33,896 nucleotides of DNA from IMG/VR virus record IMGVR_UViG_2548876958_000018. One strand, given 5' to 3'. This document shows positions 476-32,390 of the stretch, in pieces. The position numbers and the translations under genes are program-made. Numbering within the stretch: position 1 is the first letter of the stretch; every line of letters begins with the position of its first letter. A model generated the notes under the pieces. The model ran no database searches. It worked only from the letters and a program-made list of their open reading frames with translations, and was not told the DNA's origin. Origin of the DNA: a virus (Duplodnaviria; Heunggongvirae; Uroviricota; Caudoviricetes).

Positions 476-503
476 TAAAAAATAAGCCCGTGTAAGGGAG
501 ATT
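476..503. repeat. attL core: 28-bp direct repeat, duplicate of the cyaR 3' end
   Basis: TAAAAAATAAGCCCGTGTAAGGGAGATT is identical to 32363..32390; flanking bases differ on both sides. Confidence 0.85.
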
Positions 504-3893: not shown

Positions 3894-4165
3894 GTATTCG
3901 TATTGAAATTGGCGAACGTTATGTCGTTACCAGTGACAGCTTTCAGTTTATTCTCCACGAGAAAAAGAGAGCTGAAAGCGGTAAAAACGCCGGTCAGGAA
4001 TGGCTGGCGGTGGTTGGTTATTACCCGAAATTAAGCCAGCTCGTTTCCGGCCTGATGCATCACGATATTCTGACCGGAAGCGCAAAGTCTTTTGCTGATT
4101 TAAACGCGCAGGTTGAGCAACTCAGCAAGCGTTGTTCAGAGGCTTTTGGCTCATATGGCCGTTAA
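3890..4165 (+). CDS. small early protein (P2 orf83 position)
   Basis: 91-aa ORF with RBS GGAGA; stop overlaps the A start. Confidence 0.5.
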   Translation: MSIRIEIGERYVVTSDSFQFILHEKKRAESGKNAGQEWLAVVGYYPKLSQLVSGLMHHDILTGSAKSFADLNAQVEQLSKRCSEAFGSYGR

Positions 4166-6427
4166 AGCCTCCGGGCGTTTTGTCCCTCCGTCAGCATTTG
4201 CCGCAGGCACCGGTAAGACGTTTACCGGTGCTTATGCATGGAACGCGCCACGCGAGGCCGTCGGGCGCGAAAGACCCCTTACACGTGACGAGATGCGTCA
4301 GGTGCAAGGTGTTTTATCCACGATTAACCGCCTGCCTTACTTTTTGCGCTCGCTGTTTACTTCACGCTATGACTACATCCGGCGCAATAAAAGCCCGGTG
4401 CACGGGTTTTATTTCCTCACATCCACTTTTCAGCGTCGTTTATGGCCGCGCATTGAGCGTGTGAATCAGCGCCATGAAATGAACACCGACGCGTCGTTGC
4501 TGTTTCTGGCAGAGCGTGATCACTATGCGCGCCTGCCGGGAATGAATGACAAGGAGCTGAAAAAGTTTGCCGCCCGTATCTCATCGCAGCTTTTCATGAT
4601 GTATGAGGAACTCAGCGATGCCTGGGTGGATGCGCATGGCGAGAAAGAATCACTGTTTACGGATGAGGCTCAGGATCACCTGTATGGTCATGTTGCTGGC
4701 GCTGCACGAGCTTTCAATATTTCCCCTCTCTACTGGAAAAAATACCGTAAAAGACAGATGACCACGAGGCAGGCATATTCTGCCATTGCCCGTCTGTTTA
4801 ACGATGAGTGGTGGACTCATCAGCTTAAAGGCCAGCGTATGCGCTGGCATGAAGCGTTACTGATAGCTGTCGGGGAGGTCAATAAAGACCGTTCTCCTTA
4901 TGCCAGTAAACACGCCATTCGTGATGTGCGTGCGCGCCGCCAGGCAAATCTGGAATTTCTTAAATCGTGTGACCTTGAAAACAGGGAAACCGGCGAGCGC
5001 ATCGACCTTATCAGTAAGGTGATGGGCAGTATTTCTAATCCTGAAATTCGCCGGATGGAGCTGATGAACACCATTGCCGGTATTGAGCGTTACGCCGCTG
5101 CAGAGGGTGATGTGGGGATGTTTATCACGCTGACCGCGCCGTCAAAGTATCACCCGACACGTCAGGTAGGAAAAGGCGAAAGTAAAACCGTGCAGCTTAA
5201 TCACGGCTGGAACGATGAGGCATTTAATCCAAAGGATGCGCAGCGTTATCTCTGCCGTATCTGGAGCCTGATGCGCACGGCATTCAAGGATAATGATTTA
5301 CAGGTCTACGGTTTGCGTGTCGTCGAGCCACACCACGACGGAACGCCGCACTGGCATATGATGCTTTTTTGTAATTCACGCCAGCGTAACCAGATTATCG
5401 AAATCATGCGTCGCTATGCGCTCAAAGAGGATGGCGACGAAAGAGGAGCCGCGCGAAACCGTTTTCAGGCAAAACACCTTAACCGGGGCGGTGCTGCGGG
5501 ATATATCGCGAAATACATTTCAAAAAACATCGACGGCTATGCACTGGATGGTCAGCTCGATAACGACACCGGCAGGCCGCTGAAAGACACTGCAGCGGCT
5601 GTTACCGCATGGGCGTCAACGTGGCGCATCCCGCAATTTAAAACGGTTGGCCTGCCGACAATGGGGGCTTACCGTGAACTACGCAAATTGCCGCGCGGCG
5701 TCAGCATTGCTGATGAGTTTGACGAGCGCGTCGAGGCTGCACGCGCCGCCGCAGACAGTGGTGATTTTGCGTTGTATATCAGCGCGCAGGGTGGGGCACA
5801 AATGTCCCGCGCGATTGTCAGACTGTCAGAGTCGCCCGTAGCCCGTCGGATGAAGTTAACGAGTACGAGGAAGAAGTCGAGAGAGTGGTCGGCATTTACG
5901 CGCCGCATCTCGGCGCGCGTCATATTCATATCACCAGAACGACGGACTGGCGCATTGTGCCGAAAGTGCCGGTCGTTGAGCCTTTGACTTTAAAAAGCGG
6001 CATCGCCGCGCCTCGGAGTCCTGTCAATAACTGTGGAAAGCTCACCGGTAGTGATGTTTCGTTACCGGCTCCCACACCTTCTGAGCACGCCGCCGCAGTG
6101 CTTAATCTGGTTGATGACGGTGTTATCGAATGGAATGACCAGGAGGTCGTGAGGGCGCTCAGGGGCGCATTAAAACACGACCTGAGAACACCAAACCGTC
6201 AGCAAAGAAGCGGAAGCCCGTTAAAACCGCATGAAATAGCGCCATCGGCCAGACTGACCCGGTCGGAACGAATGCAAATTACCCGTATCCGCGTTGACCT
6301 TGCTCAGAACGGTATCAGGCCGCAGCGATGGGAGCTTGAGGCGCTGGCGCGTGGGGCAACTGTAAATTACGACGGGAGAAGCTTCAGTTATCCTGTTATA
6401 TGTGATTGGAGAGCGTATGAATTATGA
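4155..6427 (+). pseudogene. A: rolling-circle replication initiator A (HUH endonuclease), interrupted by a -1 frameshift
   Basis: ATG at 4155 overlaps the upstream stop (ATGGCCGTTAA). HUH-type motif TPHWHMMLF and catalytic tyrosine motif GYIAKYISK are present. The reading frame switches between 5765 and 5987: the upstream frame runs to a stop at 5987, while the downstream frame (GTG 5885..6427) is open from 5765. Combined length of about 757 codons is close to P2 gpA (761 aa, from memory). Confidence 0.8.
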
Positions 6428-6520: not shown

Positions 6521-7576
6521 TTAATTTTTAAATATGGATTGTATGTATTCTATAGTGCTATCTTTAGCTCTGATGTCTTTTAAAGTGTTATTTATGAAAT
6601 CTATTATTCTGTCATTACTTAATAGTGGCGATAACGCATAACATGTTGTTGTGAATGTCATGACGTCACTAAAGCTTAGTGAAACACCTTTTGTCGCAGC
6701 GTTCTCAATCGCAAGAGACTCATCAATATCTAAGTTTGTTGCTCTTGGCCCTTTAAGGAAGATAACTTTTGAAATCCCGGATGCAGATGCTTTTGAAACG
6801 GCGTGATTAACATCTTGATAATTAAATGGTTTGTCTTTCACTTCTATAGAAAGGAAAACTATATCATCATGATATACATCTATGTCCAGTATCTCTTTTG
6901 AGGAGCTACCGGCCTGATTGACGGGATGTGCTTTTATTATCCATCCTCTTTGTTCACCTAATAAATGTAACGAAATTGCGGCAGCAATCGCGCATGTTTC
7001 TCCATCACAAGGATGAGATATAATATTATAAATAATCTTATGGAAATCAAAATTAATTGAGTTCGGCGTTATAACTCTATTGGTTCGCTGTAGGGTAAAA
7101 TATAATGCAATAACAAGCATTTCATAAGCTAAGGTTTGGGTTGTTGCTGCATGTAATATATCAATTGAAAGTTGTTGTAAAACCTTATCATTTCCTCTGC
7201 GCACAGGGTTATCAGAGGAGTGGAGCATGTAACGAGCTGGTTTATTTAGAAATGGCTCATTTGATGCGCCTAACTTACCCTCTAAAAATGGGCCTTCTAC
7301 TTTGCCTACTATTACCGAATGACATAAACTCCTTGCATCATAGGCTCCGTCTACGGGGGCATTAGCTTGTAAAGCCAGAGGGTTAACTCTAGGGTCTGTT
7401 GCTTTTGCAAGTAAACCAGTAATAAGTATATATCTGTATGTAAGGTGGGTGCCTAAAATTACATTTTGAATGGAGACCCATTGATTATTTGTTTTGTAAT
7501 CAGTTAATTTTTTTGCATCGTTGATTGCATTTATAATTACATTATAGGCTTGCTCATGATTTACTAATACTTTCAT
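6521..7576 (-). CDS. putative Type II restriction endonuclease (351 aa)
   Basis: AT-rich ORF directly downstream of, and overlapping by 23 bp, the HTH controller gene; divergent from the methyltransferase; PD-(D/E)xK-like signature DIDVYHDDIVFLSIEVKDK; RBS AAGGA 5 nt before the ATG. Confidence 0.6.
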   Translation of the reverse strand: MKVLVNHEQAYNVIINAINDAKKLTDYKTNNQWVSIQNVILGTHLTYRYILITGLLAKATDPRVNPLALQANAPVDGAYDARSLCHSVIVGKVEGPFLEGKLGASNEPFLNKPARYMLHSSDNPVRRGNDKVLQQLSIDILHAATTQTLAYEMLVIALYFTLQRTNRVITPNSINFDFHKIIYNIISHPCDGETCAIAAAISLHLLGEQRGWIIKAHPVNQAGSSSKEILDIDVYHDDIVFLSIEVKDKPFNYQDVNHAVSKASASGISKVIFLKGPRATNLDIDESLAIENAATKGVSLSFSDVMTFTTTCYALSPLLSNDRIIDFINNTLKDIRAKDSTIEYIQSIFKN

Positions 7577-7868
7577 AGGTGTCCTTTAGTAAGATATCCA
7601 TTGGTAGACCTAATCGGCTTGCAACCACCTCTAATAATTCAAATAGTTCTAAAGCATCTAATCGCCTTTCAAAGCTTTCGATTTTAGATATATCTGATTG
7701 TGATAATCCTAGAAAAATGGCCAATTCTGACTGCGAAAGAGAAGCTTCTTTGCGTAGTTTGGTGAGAAGCTGGACTAGGCACCTGTATCTATGATCATGT
7801 ATAGTTGGTTGTCGTTTTGCCATGTGGTTTAGAAGGTGATTGATTGTGTGTCGATCCTTACCTATCAT
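7554..7868 (-). CDS. controller (C) protein of the R-M system, XRE-family HTH
   Basis: 104-aa ORF with helix-turn-helix segment LSQSELAIFLGLSQSDISKIE; sits in the gap between divergent R and M genes, upstream of and overlapping R; alternative start at Met16 (7823). Confidence 0.65.
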   Translation of the reverse strand: MIGKDRHTINHLLNHMAKRQPTIHDHRYRCLVQLLTKLRKEASLSQSELAIFLGLSQSDISKIESFERRLDALELFELLEVVASRLGLPMDILLKDTYESISKS

Positions 7869-7873
7869 TGGTT

Positions 7874-7892
7874 TTATTCCAAAATCGAATAA
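7874..7892. promoter_or_regulatory. candidate operator (C-box-like inverted repeat) between controller and methyltransferase starts
   Basis: TTATTC-N7-GAATAA dyad at 7874..7892, immediately upstream of the controller start (7868) and before the methyltransferase GTG (7907). Confidence 0.3.
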
Positions 7893-7906
7893 TTGGTGCT
7901 AAAGAA

Positions 7907-8998
7907 GTGAACAAAATTTCAGCGGTGAGCTTATTTACTGGGGCAGGAGGGATGGATGTCGGTTTCTCTAATGCCGGGTTCCGAACAGTTTGGGCCAATG
8001 ATATAGATAAGGATGCATGTGATACATTTAAGCTTAATCATGAATCACCTGTTTTTTGTGGTGATATTGATGAGATGCTAAGTGAATTGTCTGGGCTGAA
8101 AAATATAGGTTGTGTTTTTGGTGGGCCTCCATGCCAAGGATTTTCTGTGGCAGGGAAAATGGACGCTCATGATCCACGTAGTAAGCTGGTTATGTCATTC
8201 ATGCGGGCGGTGGATATAATTCAACCAGAATGCTTTGTTATGGAGAATGTTAAGGCTTTAGCACAGTTGTCCAAATTTGAACCAGTTAGGTGTGAACTGT
8301 TTAAGATGGCTGAAAAGTCAGGCTATCGTTCAGCCTTGCTGGTGCTGAATTCTAAAGATTTTGGCGTTCCTCAGAATAGGGAACGTATGTTTTTTATAGG
8401 GTTTCGTTCCGAAAATGATGTGAAACGAGTTGAGGCGGCGATAAAAAAATACCAATATCTTTCGCCAACAGTTGGTGAGATTATTCGGCCTTTAGGGCGA
8501 GCGGGTAATCCAAATAATTCAAGAGTCTGTAATGCAAGGATTACAAATGCTGCTAAGCCAGTATTACGGAAGTCACCTTACGCGGGAATGATGTTTAACG
8601 GGCAGGGAAGACCAATTAACCCGAATGGGTATGCTTCAACTATAGCTGCTTCTATGGGGGGGAATAGGACACCAATTATTGATGAAGAACACCTTTATGA
8701 TGGCTCAACAAGTTATGTTGAGACTTATCATAATCATCTAATGAATGGTGGTGAGCCAAAAGATATGCACGATGTACCTAGTCGTTTACGTCGACTAACG
8801 ATAGATGAGGCTCTTTTGATTCAAACATTCCCGAGTAATTATGTCTTTGTGGGGAAAAATTCGTCAATTTGGCGTCAGATAGGGAATGCTGTGCCTTGTA
8901 AATTGGCGCAGGCTGTTGCTGCAGGGGTTTTGGATGTCCTTACTGGTAAAACTATTAATGTTCAAAAGAGTCAAACAGAGTTGAGTTTGAATTCGTAA
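7907..8998 (+). CDS. DNA (cytosine-5)-methyltransferase
   Basis: Motif I LFTGAGGMDVGF, motif IV GPPCQGFS, motif VI ENV, motif VIII QNRERMFFIG. Start taken as the in-frame GTG at 7907, which leaves a 330-bp gap to the R start; the track's TTG at 7844 (RBS-like AAGGTG 5 nt upstream) is an alternative that would overlap the controller gene. Confidence 0.9.
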   Translation: MNKISAVSLFTGAGGMDVGFSNAGFRTVWANDIDKDACDTFKLNHESPVFCGDIDEMLSELSGLKNIGCVFGGPPCQGFSVAGKMDAHDPRSKLVMSFMRAVDIIQPECFVMENVKALAQLSKFEPVRCELFKMAEKSGYRSALLVLNSKDFGVPQNRERMFFIGFRSENDVKRVEAAIKKYQYLSPTVGEIIRPLGRAGNPNNSRVCNARITNAAKPVLRKSPYAGMMFNGQGRPINPNGYASTIAASMGGNRTPIIDEEHLYDGSTSYVETYHNHLMNGGEPKDMHDVPSRLRRLTIDEALLIQTFPSNYVFVGKNSSIWRQIGNAVPCKLAQAVAAGVLDVLTGKTINVQKSQTELSLNS

Positions 8999-12322: not shown

Positions 12323-13176
12323 ATGGCAAAAAAAGTCTCAAAATTCTTTCGTATCGGCGTTGAGGGTGACACCTGTGACGGGCGTGTCATCAGTGCGCAG
12401 GATATTCAGGAAATGGCCGAAACCTTTGACCCGCGAGTCTATGGTTGCCGCATTAACCTGGAACATCTGCGCGGCATCCTGCCTGACGGTATTTTTAAGC
12501 GTTATGGCGATGTGGCCGAACTGAAGGCCGAAAAGATTGACGATGATTCGGCGCTGAAAGGCAAATGGGCGCTGTTTGCGAAAATCACCCCGACCGATGA
12601 CCTTATCGCGATGAACAAGGCCGCGCAGAAGGTCTACACCTCAATGGAAATTCAGCCGAACTTTGCCAACACCGGCAAATGTTATCTGGTGGGTCTGGCC
12701 GTCACCGATGACCCGGCAAGCCTCGGCACGGAATACCTGGAATTCTGCCGCACGGCAAAACACAACCCCTGAACCGCTTCAAATTAAGCCCTGAAAACCT
12801 GATTTCAGTGGCAACGCCTGTTGAGCTGGAATTTGAAGACCTGCCTGAAACCGTGTTCACCGCCCTGACCGAAAAGGTGAAATCCATTTTTGGCCGCAAA
12901 CAGGCCAGCGATGACGCCCGTCTGAATGACGTGCATGAAGCGGTGACCGCTGTTGCTGAACATGTGCAGGAAAAACTGAGCGCCACTGAGCAGCGCCTCG
13001 CTGAGATGGAAACCGCCTTTTCCGCACTTAAGCAGGATGTGACTGACAGGGCGGATGAAACCAGTCAGGCATTCACCCGCCTGAAAAACAGTCTCGACCA
13101 CACCGAAAGTCTGACCCAGCAGCGCCGCAGTAAAGCCACCGGCGGTGGCGGTGACGCCCTGATGACGAACTGCTGA
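12323..13176 (+). pseudogene. O: capsid scaffold protein O, interrupted by a -1 frameshift
   Basis: ATG at 12323 (MAKKVSKFF...). Frame stops at TGA 12770..12772 and continues in the -1 frame from 12772 (track ORF 12808..13176). The span is 854 bp, one base short of 284 codons plus stop; the C4 run at 12766..12769 is the likely indel site. Confidence 0.8.
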
Positions 13177-21888: not shown

Positions 21889-23988
21889 ATGAGCACAAAA
21901 TTCAGAACCGTTATCACCACTGCTGGTGCAGCAAAGCTGGCAGCGGCAACCGCGCCGGGAGGGCGGAAGGTCAACATTACCACGATGGCCGTCGGGGATG
22001 GCGGTGGTAAATTGCCTGTCCCGGATGCCGGACAGACCGGGCTTATCCACGAAGTCTGGCGACATGCGCTGAACAAAATCAGCCAGGACAAACGAAACAG
22101 TAATTATATTATCGCAGAGCTGGTTATTCCGCCGGAGGTGGGCGGTTTCTGGATGCGTGAGCTTGGCCTGTACGATGATGCTGGAACGTTAATTGCCGTG
22201 GCGAACATGGCTGAAAGTTATAAGCCAGCTCTTGCCGAAGGCTCAGGGCGTTCGCAGACCTGCCGCATGGTCATCATCGTCAGCAGTGTGGCCTCAGTGG
22301 CGCTGACCATTGACACCACAACGGTGATGGCAACGCAGGATTACGTTGATGACAAAATTGCAGAACATGAACAGTCACGACGTCACCCGGACGCCTCGCT
22401 GACCGCCAAAGGTTTTACTCAGTTAAGCAGTGCGACCAACAGCACGTCTGAAACACTCGCCGCAACACCAAAAGCGGTAAAAGCAGCATATGACCTTGCT
22501 AACGGGAAATACACTGCACAGGACGCCACCACCGCGCGAAAAGGCCTTGTCCAGCTCAGTAGCGCCACCAACAGCGATTCTGAAACGCTTGCGGCAACGC
22601 CAAAGGCGGTTAAGACAGCGTATGACCTTGCTAACGGGAAATACACTGCACAGGATGCCACCACAGCGCGAAAAGGTCTTGTCCAGCTCAGTAGCGCCAC
22701 CAACAGTGATTCTGAAACGCTGGCTGCAACACCAAAAGCGGTGAAGTCTGCCTATGACAATGCTGAAAAACGTCTTCAGAAAGATCAGAACGGCGCGGAT
22801 ATTCCTGATAAAGATCGCTTCCTGAGTAACATTAATGTTTACAGCAAAGGCGAGGTGGATAAGAAAAAAGGAATGCGGCTGTACGTATTTAACGCGCCGT
22901 CTAATGCTGTTGGTGGAAAGTGGTATCCAGTTATTTTCCGGCGTTCCACTGGTAGCACTGGCGAACTGGCTTCCAGAGTGGTTATTACAACCACATCTGC
23001 CGGTGGTGATTACGCAATGAATAACTGCGAATTTAATGGAATGGTAATGCCCGGAGGTTGGACTGATCGTGGTTCATATGCAGCAGGTTATTTTTCGACA
23101 TATCAGACTAATGAGCGCGCAATCCATTCCATTGTAACAAGCCTGAAAGAAGATGATGTATGCAGCGTTTTTTACGTTGAAGGCAGGGCTTTTCCTGTGC
23201 GAGTTTTTGCCGAAGAAGGGCTAACGGTTATTGTTCCAACTCAGGATTATACCGTCGGTCAAACAACATATAAGTGGGGAGCAACTAATCCCGCGACAGA
23301 AAGCACGAACGCACAAGCCATTCTGGATTTTAACAATGGGCGAGGGTTTTATTGTTCTCACTCAATATTCGGTATTAATGCCATTTTTAGCGGAAATCTG
23401 GGGATTGGAACGGCTAATGCCCTGGGTGGAAATTCAATAGTTTTAGGAGATAACGATACCGGGTTTAAACAAAATGGTGATGGGGTGCTGGATGCTTATG
23501 CTAATGGTGTGCATGTATTCCGCTTTATAAATGGTTCAGCAAGATCATTAAAGGGTATTCAGGCTGGGGAAAGTAAGTTCTTCACACTTTCAAGTGCAAA
23601 TACCGCTGCCCGTAATGCATCATTTAACTTGTGGGGAAATTCGTCAAGACCAACTGTTGCAGAGCTTGGTGATGATTCAGGCTGGCATTTCTATAGTCAG
23701 CGAAATACAGATAACTCGGTGATATTTGCTGTAAACGGTCAGATACAACCAAGCAACTGGGATAACATTGATTCCCGATATGTGAAAGATGTTCGGCTTG
23801 GCTCACAGCAATATTATGGTGTGAACAACTGGCAAACATGGAACTTTCAGTGCCCTTCAGGTCATGTATTGTCTGGTATAAATGTTCAGGATACAGGTTC
23901 CAACTCCGCCGATAATATTGCGGGTGTTTATTACAGACCCGTTCAAAAGTATATAAATGGCACATGGTATAATGTAGCGAGCGTTTAA
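21889..23988 (+). CDS. H: tail fiber protein (699 aa), mosaic with internal tandem repeats
   Basis: Large ORF after I; N-terminal part GC-rich like the rest of the phage, C-terminal about 1.2 kb AT-rich with a Gly/Asn/Ser-rich distal domain; followed by the fiber assembly gene. Confidence 0.85.
22423..22758 (+). repeat. in-frame tandem repeat inside H: 132-bp unit, about 2.5 copies
   Basis: 44-aa unit LSSATNS(T/D)[12 protein letters not shown](A/T)[23 protein letters not shown] repeated from 22423, 22555 and 22687, with a few substitutions. Confidence 0.8.
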
Positions 23989-24738: not shown

Positions 24739-25332
24739 ATGTTTACTAAGCGACGATTAAAAAATATTAACTGGGAGGCAAGTTCAGTGATTCTTGCTAT
24801 GGTTCTCTTTGCTGGAAATATATTTTATACAAATCATCGTGATGATATAAGCATGGAGGCTGAGAGAGACAGTATCAGAACAATGTTTGCATATGAAATC
24901 GCTAATAACCATCGCGCTCTCACCTTTCTTGATAAAACGAGAAATATTGGCTTTGACGAAAATTCGGAGCATTTTGTTGGCGAGCCTTTTGCCATTAATG
25001 TCAAATCATCAGGGGGACCTCGCTTACAGATTGCATTAAACCAGACTGATAAAGTGTTTAAATCATACTTCAGCGAATTAAGTAAGCTTGATAAAGAGGA
25101 TGTTACTCTTCTTATGGACTATTACCATGAGCAAAGCATCCTGCTGGAGCGTGTAAAATCTACGTTACAGAAGATGAAAAGTGGTAATGATATTAAAGTT
25201 GATATTGATGGTTACTTATTAGAAGAACACTTCATGAATGAGCTTAATCTTTCTAATATTTTGCTTAAACGCTATAGCTATTTATTATCACAGCACGCTA
25301 AAGAACATAAAACAAAAGATTTACATAATTGA
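24739..25332 (+). CDS. AT-rich moron: 197-aa protein with one N-terminal TM anchor, unknown function (P2 Z/fun position)
   Basis: Preceded by a 220-bp AT-rich spacer; N-terminal hydrophobic segment SSVILAMVLFAGNIFY, then a charged, probably helical domain; lies between G and FI. Confidence 0.7.
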   Translation: MFTKRRLKNINWEASSVILAMVLFAGNIFYTNHRDDISMEAERDSIRTMFAYEIANNHRALTFLDKTRNIGFDENSEHFVGEPFAINVKSSGGPRLQIALNQTDKVFKSYFSELSKLDKEDVTLLMDYYHEQSILLERVKSTLQKMKSGNDIKVDIDGYLLEEHFMNELNLSNILLKRYSYLLSQHAKEHKTKDLHN

Positions 25333-27439: not shown

Positions 27440-27715
27440 ATGAACAAAGAAAATGTGATTACCCTGGACAATCCGGTCAAACGTGGTGAGCAGGTTATCG
27501 AACAGGTCACGCTGATGAAACCCAGTGCCGGGACGCTGCGCGGTGTCAGTCTGGCTGCGGTCGCGAACTCCGAAGTCGATGCACTGATTAAGGTGCTGCC
27601 GCGCATGACTGCACCGATGCTGACCGAGCAGGAAGTCGCCGCACTGGAACTGCCTGACCTTGTGGCGCTGGCCGGTAAGGTGGTCGGTTTTTTGTCGCCG
27701 AACTCGGTGCAGTGA
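27440..27715 (+). CDS. E: tail assembly chaperone E (91 aa)
   Basis: 91-aa ORF immediately upstream of the tape measure gene. Confidence 0.7.
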   Translation: MNKENVITLDNPVKRGEQVIEQVTLMKPSAGTLRGVSLAAVANSEVDALIKVLPRMTAPMLTEQEVAALELPDLVALAGKVVGFLSPNSVQ

Positions 27716-32362: not shown

Positions 32363-32390
32363 TAAAAAATAAGCCCGTGTAAGGGAGATT
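32363..32390. repeat. attR core: 28-bp direct repeat overlapping the cyaR 3' terminator
   Basis: identical to 476..503. Confidence 0.85.

What the first reader, a model, noticed from the sequence alone, without database searches (positions are those of the whole stretch)
12712..12810. Capsid scaffold gene O is split by a -1 frameshift at a C-run
The O frame ends with TGA at 12770..12772 right after a C4 run (12766..12769), and the protein continues in the -1 frame to 13176. The total span is 854 bp, exactly one base short of 284 codons plus stop. This is a second homopolymer-associated frameshift in an essential gene, the same signature as in A, which argues for either systematic homopolymer sequencing error or a decaying, defective prophage.
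Basis: seen in the sequence. Interest (0 to 1): 0.5.

Follow-up and report, generated by a model that had tools for sequence, protein, structure and literature searches.

The report
Frameshifted scaffold gene in decaying prophage
A P2-like prophage in an E. coli chromosome has lost one C from a five-C run in its capsid scaffold/protease gene O, which, with a separate 2-base insertion in replication gene A, makes it an ordinary, recently disabled prophage rather than a sequencing artefact or a new mechanism.

Summary
O starts at 12323, hits TGA at 12770-12772 right after a C4 run (12766-12769), and continues in the -1 frame to 13176. That is 854 bp instead of 855.

P2, the nearest intact allele (strain KL53, identical apart from this base), all 94 phage records and about 1500 complete E. 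coli genomes have C5 here.

The loss appears to be a real mutation, not a systematic homopolymer error:
- Only 1 of 104 comparable runs of 5 or more bases differs from P2.
- The window is base-for-base identical to an NCBI draft contig and to two later, separately sequenced SRA assemblies.
- The second lesion, in A, is a CA dinucleotide insertion (5797-5800), not a homopolymer change. It occurs only in this lineage.

The other 38 P2-homologous genes compared and both 27-bp att cores are intact, so this looks like a prophage at an early stage of decay.

The same C5-to-C4 change recurs on at least 11 O haplotypes elsewhere. Several of those are noisy assemblies, and a few are clean genomes where NCBI's PGAP annotation pipeline calls O a "frameshifted" pseudogene. 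Its frequency is about 0.2%, not clearly above control runs.

There is no sign of programmed frameshifting. Ordinary; low interest.

The parts
12323..12772 (+). 5' piece of gene O: 149 codons plus a premature TGA. It encodes the whole gpO protease domain (residues 1-141, O*) plus 8 residues.
   Evidence: 100% identical to P2 gpO 1-149; PF05929 positions 1-143. Domain limits are from PMC7552001.
12766..12769 (+). C4 run, the site of the 1-base deletion. It is C5 in P2, in KL53, in all phage records and in about 99.8% of complete E. coli genomes that carry the gene.
12770..12772 (+). Premature stop TGA. Together with the preceding CCC it forms a CCC_UGA 'shifty stop'.
   Evidence: The shift-proneness of CCC_UGA (+1, usually 2% or less) is from PMC3082878.
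12769..13176 (+). 3' piece of gene O in the -1 frame: codons 150-284 plus the normal stop. It carries the scaffolding domain (residues 195-284).
   Evidence: gpO 146-284 at 12757-13173, frame 1, no stops; PF05929 positions 158-268.
12808..13176 (+). The 122-aa GTG-initiated ORF that gene callers report for the 3' piece. No Shine-Dalgarno-like sequence is visible upstream.
   Evidence: The upstream sequence was read.
4155..5987 (+). 5' piece of replication gene A (610-aa product). It goes out of frame after about codon 547.
5797..5800 (+). CACA where P2 and all complete E. coli records with this segment have CA: a 2-base insertion that frameshifts A.
5768..6427 (+). 3' piece of gene A in the other frame (P2 gpA residues 538-754 plus the end).
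477..503 (+). attL core, AAAAAATAAGCCCGTGTAAGGGAGATT.
   Evidence: the identical 27-mer at both ends., 8 places the P2 homology from 476.
32364..32390 (+). attR core, the identical 27-mer. The host gene yegQ follows.

Best explanation
The window holds a complete P2-like prophage integrated between yegR and yegQ of an E. coli chromosome. In this bacterial lineage one C:G pair has been lost from a C5 run at codons 148-150 of gene O, most plausibly by replication slippage. Translation now stops at UGA after residue 149. The product is the protease domain (gpO 1-141 plus 8 residues) without the middle region or the C-terminal scaffolding domain (195-284), which the cited literature describes as absolutely required for P2 procapsid assembly. 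A second, independent lesion, a CA insertion, truncates the replication initiator A. The prophage therefore keeps its immunity genes, integrase, att sites, restriction-modification cargo and all other structural genes. It is predicted to be unable to replicate or to build heads: a cryptic prophage at a very early stage of decay. Shown here: the lesion, its reproducibility, the absence of a general homopolymer problem, and the intactness of everything else. Inferred: the slippage origin and the loss of function.
For: There is a one-base gap at the C run against P2 and KL53, and KL53's O gene is otherwise identical, with 0 mismatches. The window is 100% identical, with no gaps, to NCBI contig AIBX01000252.1 over 20,450 bp, to Logan SRR15361848 over 15,987 bp (both lesions present) and to Logan SRR12769930 over 9,175 bp (A lesion present). 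Only 1 of 104 comparable homopolymer runs of 5 or more bases differs from P2. The other 38 P2 proteins with a match in the window align full length, or nearly so (the tail-fibre protein H is diverged in the middle but is one intact 699-aa ORF), with no stops. The A lesion is a +2 CA insertion found in 0 of 1488 complete E. coli records and on only 5 contigs of the 15-billion-protein collection, all of the same prophage. PGAP annotates the same O lesion in complete RefSeq genomes as a 'frameshifted' pseudogene. All 94 phage records with this segment have C5. IMG/VR has 0 C4 contigs against at least 120 C5 contigs. gpO domain roles and essentiality come from PMC7552001.
Against: I could not see raw reads, so a reproducible platform-specific miscall is not formally excluded. 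The same C5-to-C4 change also turns up in assemblies that are clearly noisy, with several other -1 homopolymer deletions, so this run is error-prone on some platforms. The three datasets that match the window may be the same strain or close siblings. They are independent sequencing experiments but not independent mutations. Loss of function is inferred from the literature and was not tested. A -1 slip of the P-site tRNA-Pro on C_CCC_UGA would regenerate exactly wild-type gpO, so the allele could be slightly leaky.
Confidence: 0.86

Rival explanations
1. Sequencing or assembly artefact: the strain really has C5, and the base was under-called in a homopolymer (454, Ion Torrent or nanopore style error).
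For: C5-to-C4 at this exact site occurs in several GenBank and Logan assemblies that also carry 2-4 other -1 deletions in runs of 5 or more bases within about 15 kb: L004, L006, L008, L009 and L012. The NCBI assembly accession suggests a draft from around 2012-2013 (my inference), a period when 454 data were common (my knowledge).
Against: In the window 103 of 104 other comparable runs are unchanged, including G6, G7 and A/T7-8 runs. The identical sequence comes from three separate datasets, including SRA runs whose accession numbers suggest submission years later (my inference). The companion lesion in A is a dinucleotide insertion, which is not a homopolymer miscall.
Confidence: 0.09
2. Functional split or leaky allele. 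The stop lies just past the gpO autocleavage site (141/142). The cell would make a free protease domain (1-149), a scaffold fragment (163-284) by reinitiation at GTG 12808, and some full-length gpO by a -1 P-site slip on C_CCC_UGA. The gene would still work, as a recoded or two-piece scaffold/protease.
For: The break falls in the linker between the protease and scaffold domains. A -1 re-pairing of tRNA-Pro from CCC (12767-12769) to CCC (12766-12768) followed by CTG would give exactly the wild-type sequence ...KHNP-LNRF... (read). CCC_UGA is a documented shifty stop in E. coli. The C4 allele recurs on at least 11 haplotypes, some in otherwise intact prophages: L010, L011 and ST2350.
Against: The documented slippage at CCC_UGA is +1 and usually 2% or less. 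Here +1 leads to a dead-end 7-codon tail (ORF 12663-12794). There is no canonical X_XXY_YYZ heptamer, no Shine-Dalgarno-like stimulator and no significant downstream structure (z = -1.24). No sequence change accompanies C4 relative to C5 alleles (KL53 is otherwise identical). C4 is absent from all 94 phage records and from IMG/VR, and is present in about 0.2% of complete genomes, similar in order to control runs at 0/1483 and 1/1512. No ribosome-binding site is visible upstream of GTG 12808. A scaffold is needed in stoichiometric amounts.
Confidence: 0.04

Closest known systems
Bacteriophage P2 gene O (gpO, capsid scaffolding protein / head maturation serine protease; Pfam PF05929 Phage_GPO)
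   Same: Same gene at the same place in the P2 late operon (P-Q divergent from O-N-M-L). The DNA is 99.1% identical to P2. Residues 1-149 are 100% and residues 146-284 are 97.8% identical to P2 gpO.
   Different: One C is missing from the C5 run at codons 148-150, so the ORF is split into a 149-codon piece and a 135-codon piece in different frames. P2 and every phage record examined have one 284-codon ORF.
'Frameshifted' GPO-family pseudogenes annotated by PGAP in complete E. coli genomes (ST2350, BS74R-D, XH989/XH987)
   Same: The same C4 allele across the same 83-bp context. In those records O is annotated as a frameshifted pseudogene inside P2-like prophages.
   Different: They have different O haplotypes (12-15 substitutions from the window), different cargo genes and different chromosomal contexts, so they are independent events. 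None carries the CA insertion in A.
The P2 remnant of E. coli K-12 (D' fragment plus ogrK between yegR and yegQ)
   Same: Same chromosomal site: in both, P2-type sequence lies between yegR and yegQ.
   Different: K-12 keeps only about 0.5 kb (a gpD C-terminal fragment and ogrK). The window keeps the full ~32-kb prophage with just two small lesions, an early rather than a terminal stage of decay.
The genuine programmed -1 frameshift of P2 (E/E' tail chaperone genes)
   Same: It is in the same prophage. Both involve a -1 change of frame within a short run of one base.
   Different: E/E' uses a canonical slippery heptamer, T_TTT_TTG, conserved here at 27688-27694 and annotated in the P2 record. 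The O site has no such heptamer, and the C4 state is rare and absent from the phage records examined.

Membership tests
GPO family capsid scaffolding protein / serine peptidase (PF05929) | Significant match to the family profile | tested here: met
   the 5' piece scores 255.7 bits (profile positions 1-143) and the 3' piece 77.6 bits (positions 158-268). The cutoff is 33.6.
GPO family capsid scaffolding protein / serine peptidase (PF05929) | One uninterrupted ORF of about 284 codons joining the protease and scaffold domains | tested here: not met
   TGA after codon 149, and the rest is in the -1 frame. It is a disrupted member (pseudogene), not an intact one.
GPO family capsid scaffolding protein / serine peptidase (PF05929) | Protease domain with its catalytic residues (Ser107 in P2 gpO) | tested here: met
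   residues 1-149 are 100% identical to P2 gpO, so Ser107 is present. The role of S107 is from PMC7552001.
Programmed -1 ribosomal frameshift site | Canonical slippery heptamer X_XXY_YYZ | tested here: not met
   the site is A_ACC_CCU_GA. Only a P-site slip on C_CCC is possible, with a stop codon in the A site.
Programmed -1 ribosomal frameshift site | Stimulatory downstream structure or upstream Shine-Dalgarno-like element | tested here: not met
   the downstream 88 nt fold with z = -1.24, and 23 of 200 shuffles fold as well. No AGGAGG-like motif appears upstream.
Programmed -1 ribosomal frameshift site | The frameshifted arrangement is conserved among homologues, including functional phages | tested here: not met
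   0 of 94 phage records, 0 against at least 120 in IMG/VR, and 4 of 1507 complete E. coli records.
Homopolymer sequencing artefact | Other homopolymer runs in the same assembly are also mis-sized | tested here: not met
   1 of 104 comparable runs of 5 or more bases is changed in the window. Noisy assemblies with the same C4 show 4-5 changes in 47-65 runs.
Homopolymer sequencing artefact | Not reproducible in independent sequencing of the same lineage | tested here: not met
   there are zero differences between the window and NCBI AIBX01000252.1, Logan SRR15361848 and Logan SRR12769930. Raw reads could not be inspected.
Defective (cryptic) P2-like prophage | Integrated phage genome bounded by att repeats in a host chromosome | tested here: met
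   P2 synteny from 476 to 32390, identical 27-bp cores at both ends, and yegR and yegQ flanks.
Defective (cryptic) P2-like prophage | At least one essential phage gene is inactivated | tested here: met
   O and A are both frameshifted. Both are marked essential in the P2 record and literature.
Defective (cryptic) P2-like prophage | Inability to produce infectious phage | not testable with these tools
   This needs a plaque or induction assay on the source strain.

The most novel reading that the evidence does not exclude
The C4 allele might not be dead. The deletion sits in the linker just after the gpO self-cleavage site and creates a C_CCC_UGA shifty stop. A -1 slip of the peptidyl-tRNA-Pro there would restore exactly wild-type gpO. 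Termination would yield a free protease domain, and reinitiation at GTG 12808 would yield a scaffold-only fragment. That resembles the protease-plus-nested-scaffold arrangement of lambda-like phages. Its recurrence on at least 11 haplotypes, some in otherwise intact prophages, would then reflect a tolerated or switchable state of the head gene rather than pure decay.
Probability: 0.04. Interest if true: 0.5.

Novelty: already known. Interest (0 to 1): 0.12.

Why it matters
It matters mainly for annotation and data quality. O at 12323-13176 and A at 4155-6427 should be annotated as frameshifted pseudogenes of a cryptic P2-like prophage, not "corrected" and not called as four separate genes. The prophage should not be counted as intact or inducible.

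It is also a clean example of the first steps of prophage domestication. There are two small lesions in essential genes while immunity, integrase, att sites and a SacI-type restriction-modification cargo stay intact. At the same chromosomal site E. coli K-12 retains only a D'-ogrK stump.

A practical by-product: C5-to-C4 at this site, together with T6/A6-to-5 changes in Q, P, N, L, Y and S, is a quick marker of homopolymer-noisy assemblies of P2-like prophages.

Tried and rejected
- **Systematic homopolymer error.** Rejected for this window by the run-by-run comparison with P2 and by identity to independent assemblies.
- **Single ancestral C4 allele spread by descent.** Rejected. Eleven distinct O haplotypes carry C4, 6-19 substitutions apart, with different cargo genes.
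- **Special mutational hot spot.** Not supported. C4 is in 4 of 1507 complete E. coli records, about 3 independent events since XH987 and XH989 look clonal. Two artificial control deletions gave 0/1483 (C5 in gene L) and 1/1512 (G5 in gene P). The numbers are too small to claim enrichment.
- **Programmed frameshift.** No heptamer, no stimulator and no conservation. The known CCC_UGA slippage goes +1, the wrong direction.
- **Identifying the source strain from the literature.** A search for the accession (AIBX..., GCA_000447005) found nothing.
- **Primary gpO domain papers.** I tried to read Chang et al. 2008 and 2009 (PMC2186210, PMC2655311). They are not held, so domain boundaries are taken from the discussion in PMC7552001.
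- **Malformed query.** One literature query failed on a too-short term.

Full report
**What is in the sequence.** The window is an E. coli chromosomal segment carrying a complete P2-like prophage. It is collinear with phage P2 (NC_001895):
- window 476-6396 matches P2 24355-30273 (att, int, C, cox, B, A);
- window 9155-22616 matches P2 1-13461 (cos, Q, P, O, N ... H);
- window 25447-32390 matches P2 17433-24382 (FI ... D, ogr, att).

Identical 27-bp att cores (AAAAAATAAGCCCGTGTAAGGGAGATT) lie at 477-503 and 32364-32390. The right flank is yegQ, 100% identical to K-12. Related contigs show yegS and yegR on the left.

**The observation.** Gene O opens with ATG at 12323 and reads ...AAA CAC AAC CCC TGA. 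The C run is at 12766-12769 and the stop at 12770-12772. tblastn with P2 gpO places residues 1-149 at 12323-12769 (frame 2, 100% identity). Residues 146-284 are at 12757-13173 (frame 1, 97.8%), ending at the normal stop at 13174-13176. The total is 854 bp against 855 in P2. DNA alignment shows one gap, in the run: C4 here and C5 in P2 and in the KL53 prophage. Pfam PF05929 is divided between the two pieces.

**Real change or error?** Three lines of evidence say it is real.
- Of 104 homopolymer runs of 5 or more bases that can be compared with P2, only this one differs. The window keeps G7, G6 and A/T7-8 runs, and all other P2-homologous genes are full length.
- The window has zero differences from NCBI contig AIBX01000252.1 (GCA_000447005.2; 20,450 bp). 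It also has zero differences from Logan assemblies of two later SRA runs: SRR15361848 (15,987 bp, containing both lesions) and SRR12769930 (9,175 bp, containing the A lesion).
- The companion lesion in A is not a homopolymer event. It is a 2-base insertion, GGGGCACAAATG against GGGGCAAATG, at 5797-5800. It is absent from all 1488 complete E. coli records with this segment. It is present on only five contigs of the large collection, and the two loci fetched from them are identical to the window.

Raw reads were not available, so a small residual chance of artefact remains.

**How recent and how damaging.** The nearest intact O allele (strain KL53) is identical to the window's O apart from the missing C, so nothing has accumulated since the deletion. 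The other 38 P2 proteins with a match in the window align full length, or nearly so, without stops; the tail-fibre protein H is diverged in the middle but is one intact 699-aa ORF. C, cox and ogr are 100% identical to P2, and int 99.7%.

By the literature, gpO residues 1-141 are the maturation protease. Residues 195-284 are the internal scaffold, absolutely required for P2 procapsid assembly, and gpO is essential for viable P2 and P4 particles (PMC7552001). The stop after residue 149 therefore leaves a protease domain with no scaffold. A is the essential replication initiator and goes out of frame after about codon 547 of 761.

The most likely state is a cryptic prophage at the very start of decay. 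It would still confer immunity and still carries its cargo. At the same yegR/yegQ site K-12 retains only a gpD fragment and ogrK.

**The same change elsewhere.** The exact 149-aa and 122-aa products are on 69 and 76 contigs of the 15-billion-protein collection. The fetched examples, plus four complete RefSeq genomes, carry C4 on 11 different O haplotypes with different cargo genes, so the change has arisen many times.

Several of these assemblies are evidently noisy. L004, L006, L008, L009 and L012 each have 3-4 other -1 deletions in T6, A6 and A5 runs of Q, P, N, L, Y, lysC or S, and further 1-base deletions next to shorter runs. There C4 is probably an error. Others are clean: L010, L011, ST2350 and XH989. 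In the RefSeq genomes PGAP labels O a frameshifted pseudogene.

The frequency is low: 4 of 1507 complete E. coli records, 0 of 94 phage records, and 0 against at least 120 in IMG/VR. Two control runs with an artificial 1-base deletion gave 0/1483 and 1/1512. I cannot claim a hot spot.

**Recoding considered.** The deletion happens to create CCC_UGA, a documented shifty stop in E. coli. That slippage is +1 and usually 2% or less (PMC3082878). Here +1 gives only seven more codons. A -1 slip of tRNA-Pro onto the preceding C_CC would regenerate wild-type gpO exactly. However:
- there is no canonical heptamer and no Shine-Dalgarno-like stimulator;
- there is no significant downstream structure (z = -1.24);
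- there is no accompanying sequence change;
- C4 is not conserved in any phage record examined.

By contrast, the genuine P2 E/E' frameshift site T_TTT_TTG is present at 27688-27694. I give the functional or leaky reading about 4%.

**Verdict.** The comparison with A is inaccurate in kind. This is a known type of feature, a frameshift pseudogene in a cryptic P2-like prophage, and is of low interest beyond annotation and assembly quality control.

Noticed in passing
window 5797-5800 (gene A, 4155-6427): Replication gene A is frameshifted by a 2-base CA insertion (CACA versus CA), not by a homopolymer change. It is absent from 1488 complete E. coli records and is found on only 5 contigs of the large protein collection; the two loci fetched from them (L133, L134) are identical to the window.
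   Followed up: yes
window 6521-8998: The cargo in the P2 old/tin position is a SacI-family restriction endonuclease (6521-7576, minus strand), a small HTH controller-like protein (7554-7868, minus strand) and a C-5 cytosine methyltransferase (ORF from 7844, or 7952 as called in Logan loci, to 8998). All three are intact, and the methylase contains an unbroken G7 run at 8656-8662.
   Followed up: partly
loci L004-L012, L135-L137 (O gene): The same C5-to-C4 change sits on 11 different O haplotypes in prophages with different defence cargo (SIR2+DUF87, a HIRAN-domain protein, retron Ec48, AAA_13 and others). Many of these assemblies also have -1 deletions in T6/A6 runs of Q, P, N, L, Y and S, a signature of homopolymer-noisy assemblies.
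   Followed up: yes
L138 (E. coli K-12 MG1655, yegR-yegQ interval): At the same integration site K-12 keeps only a C-terminal gpD fragment and ogrK. This is the terminal stage of the decay that is just starting in the window.
   Followed up: partly
window 12767-12772: The deletion creates CCC_UGA, a known +1 shifty stop in E. coli. The +1 frame ends after 7 codons, whereas a -1 slip on C_CCC would restore wild-type gpO. No stimulatory elements were found.
   Followed up: partly
window 27688-27694: The genuine P2 programmed -1 frameshift heptamer for E/E' (T_TTT_TTG) is conserved.
   Followed up: partly
window 24739-25332: A 197-aa ORF with no Pfam match lies between tail-fibre assembly gene G and FI, where P2 carries fun(Z). 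It is probably another cargo gene.
   Followed up: partly
window 22420-22758: There is an internal imperfect direct repeat of about 207 bp (86% identity, offset 132 bp) inside tail-fibre gene H (21889-23988). H is an intact 699-aa ORF that diverges from P2 H after residue 251.
   Followed up: no
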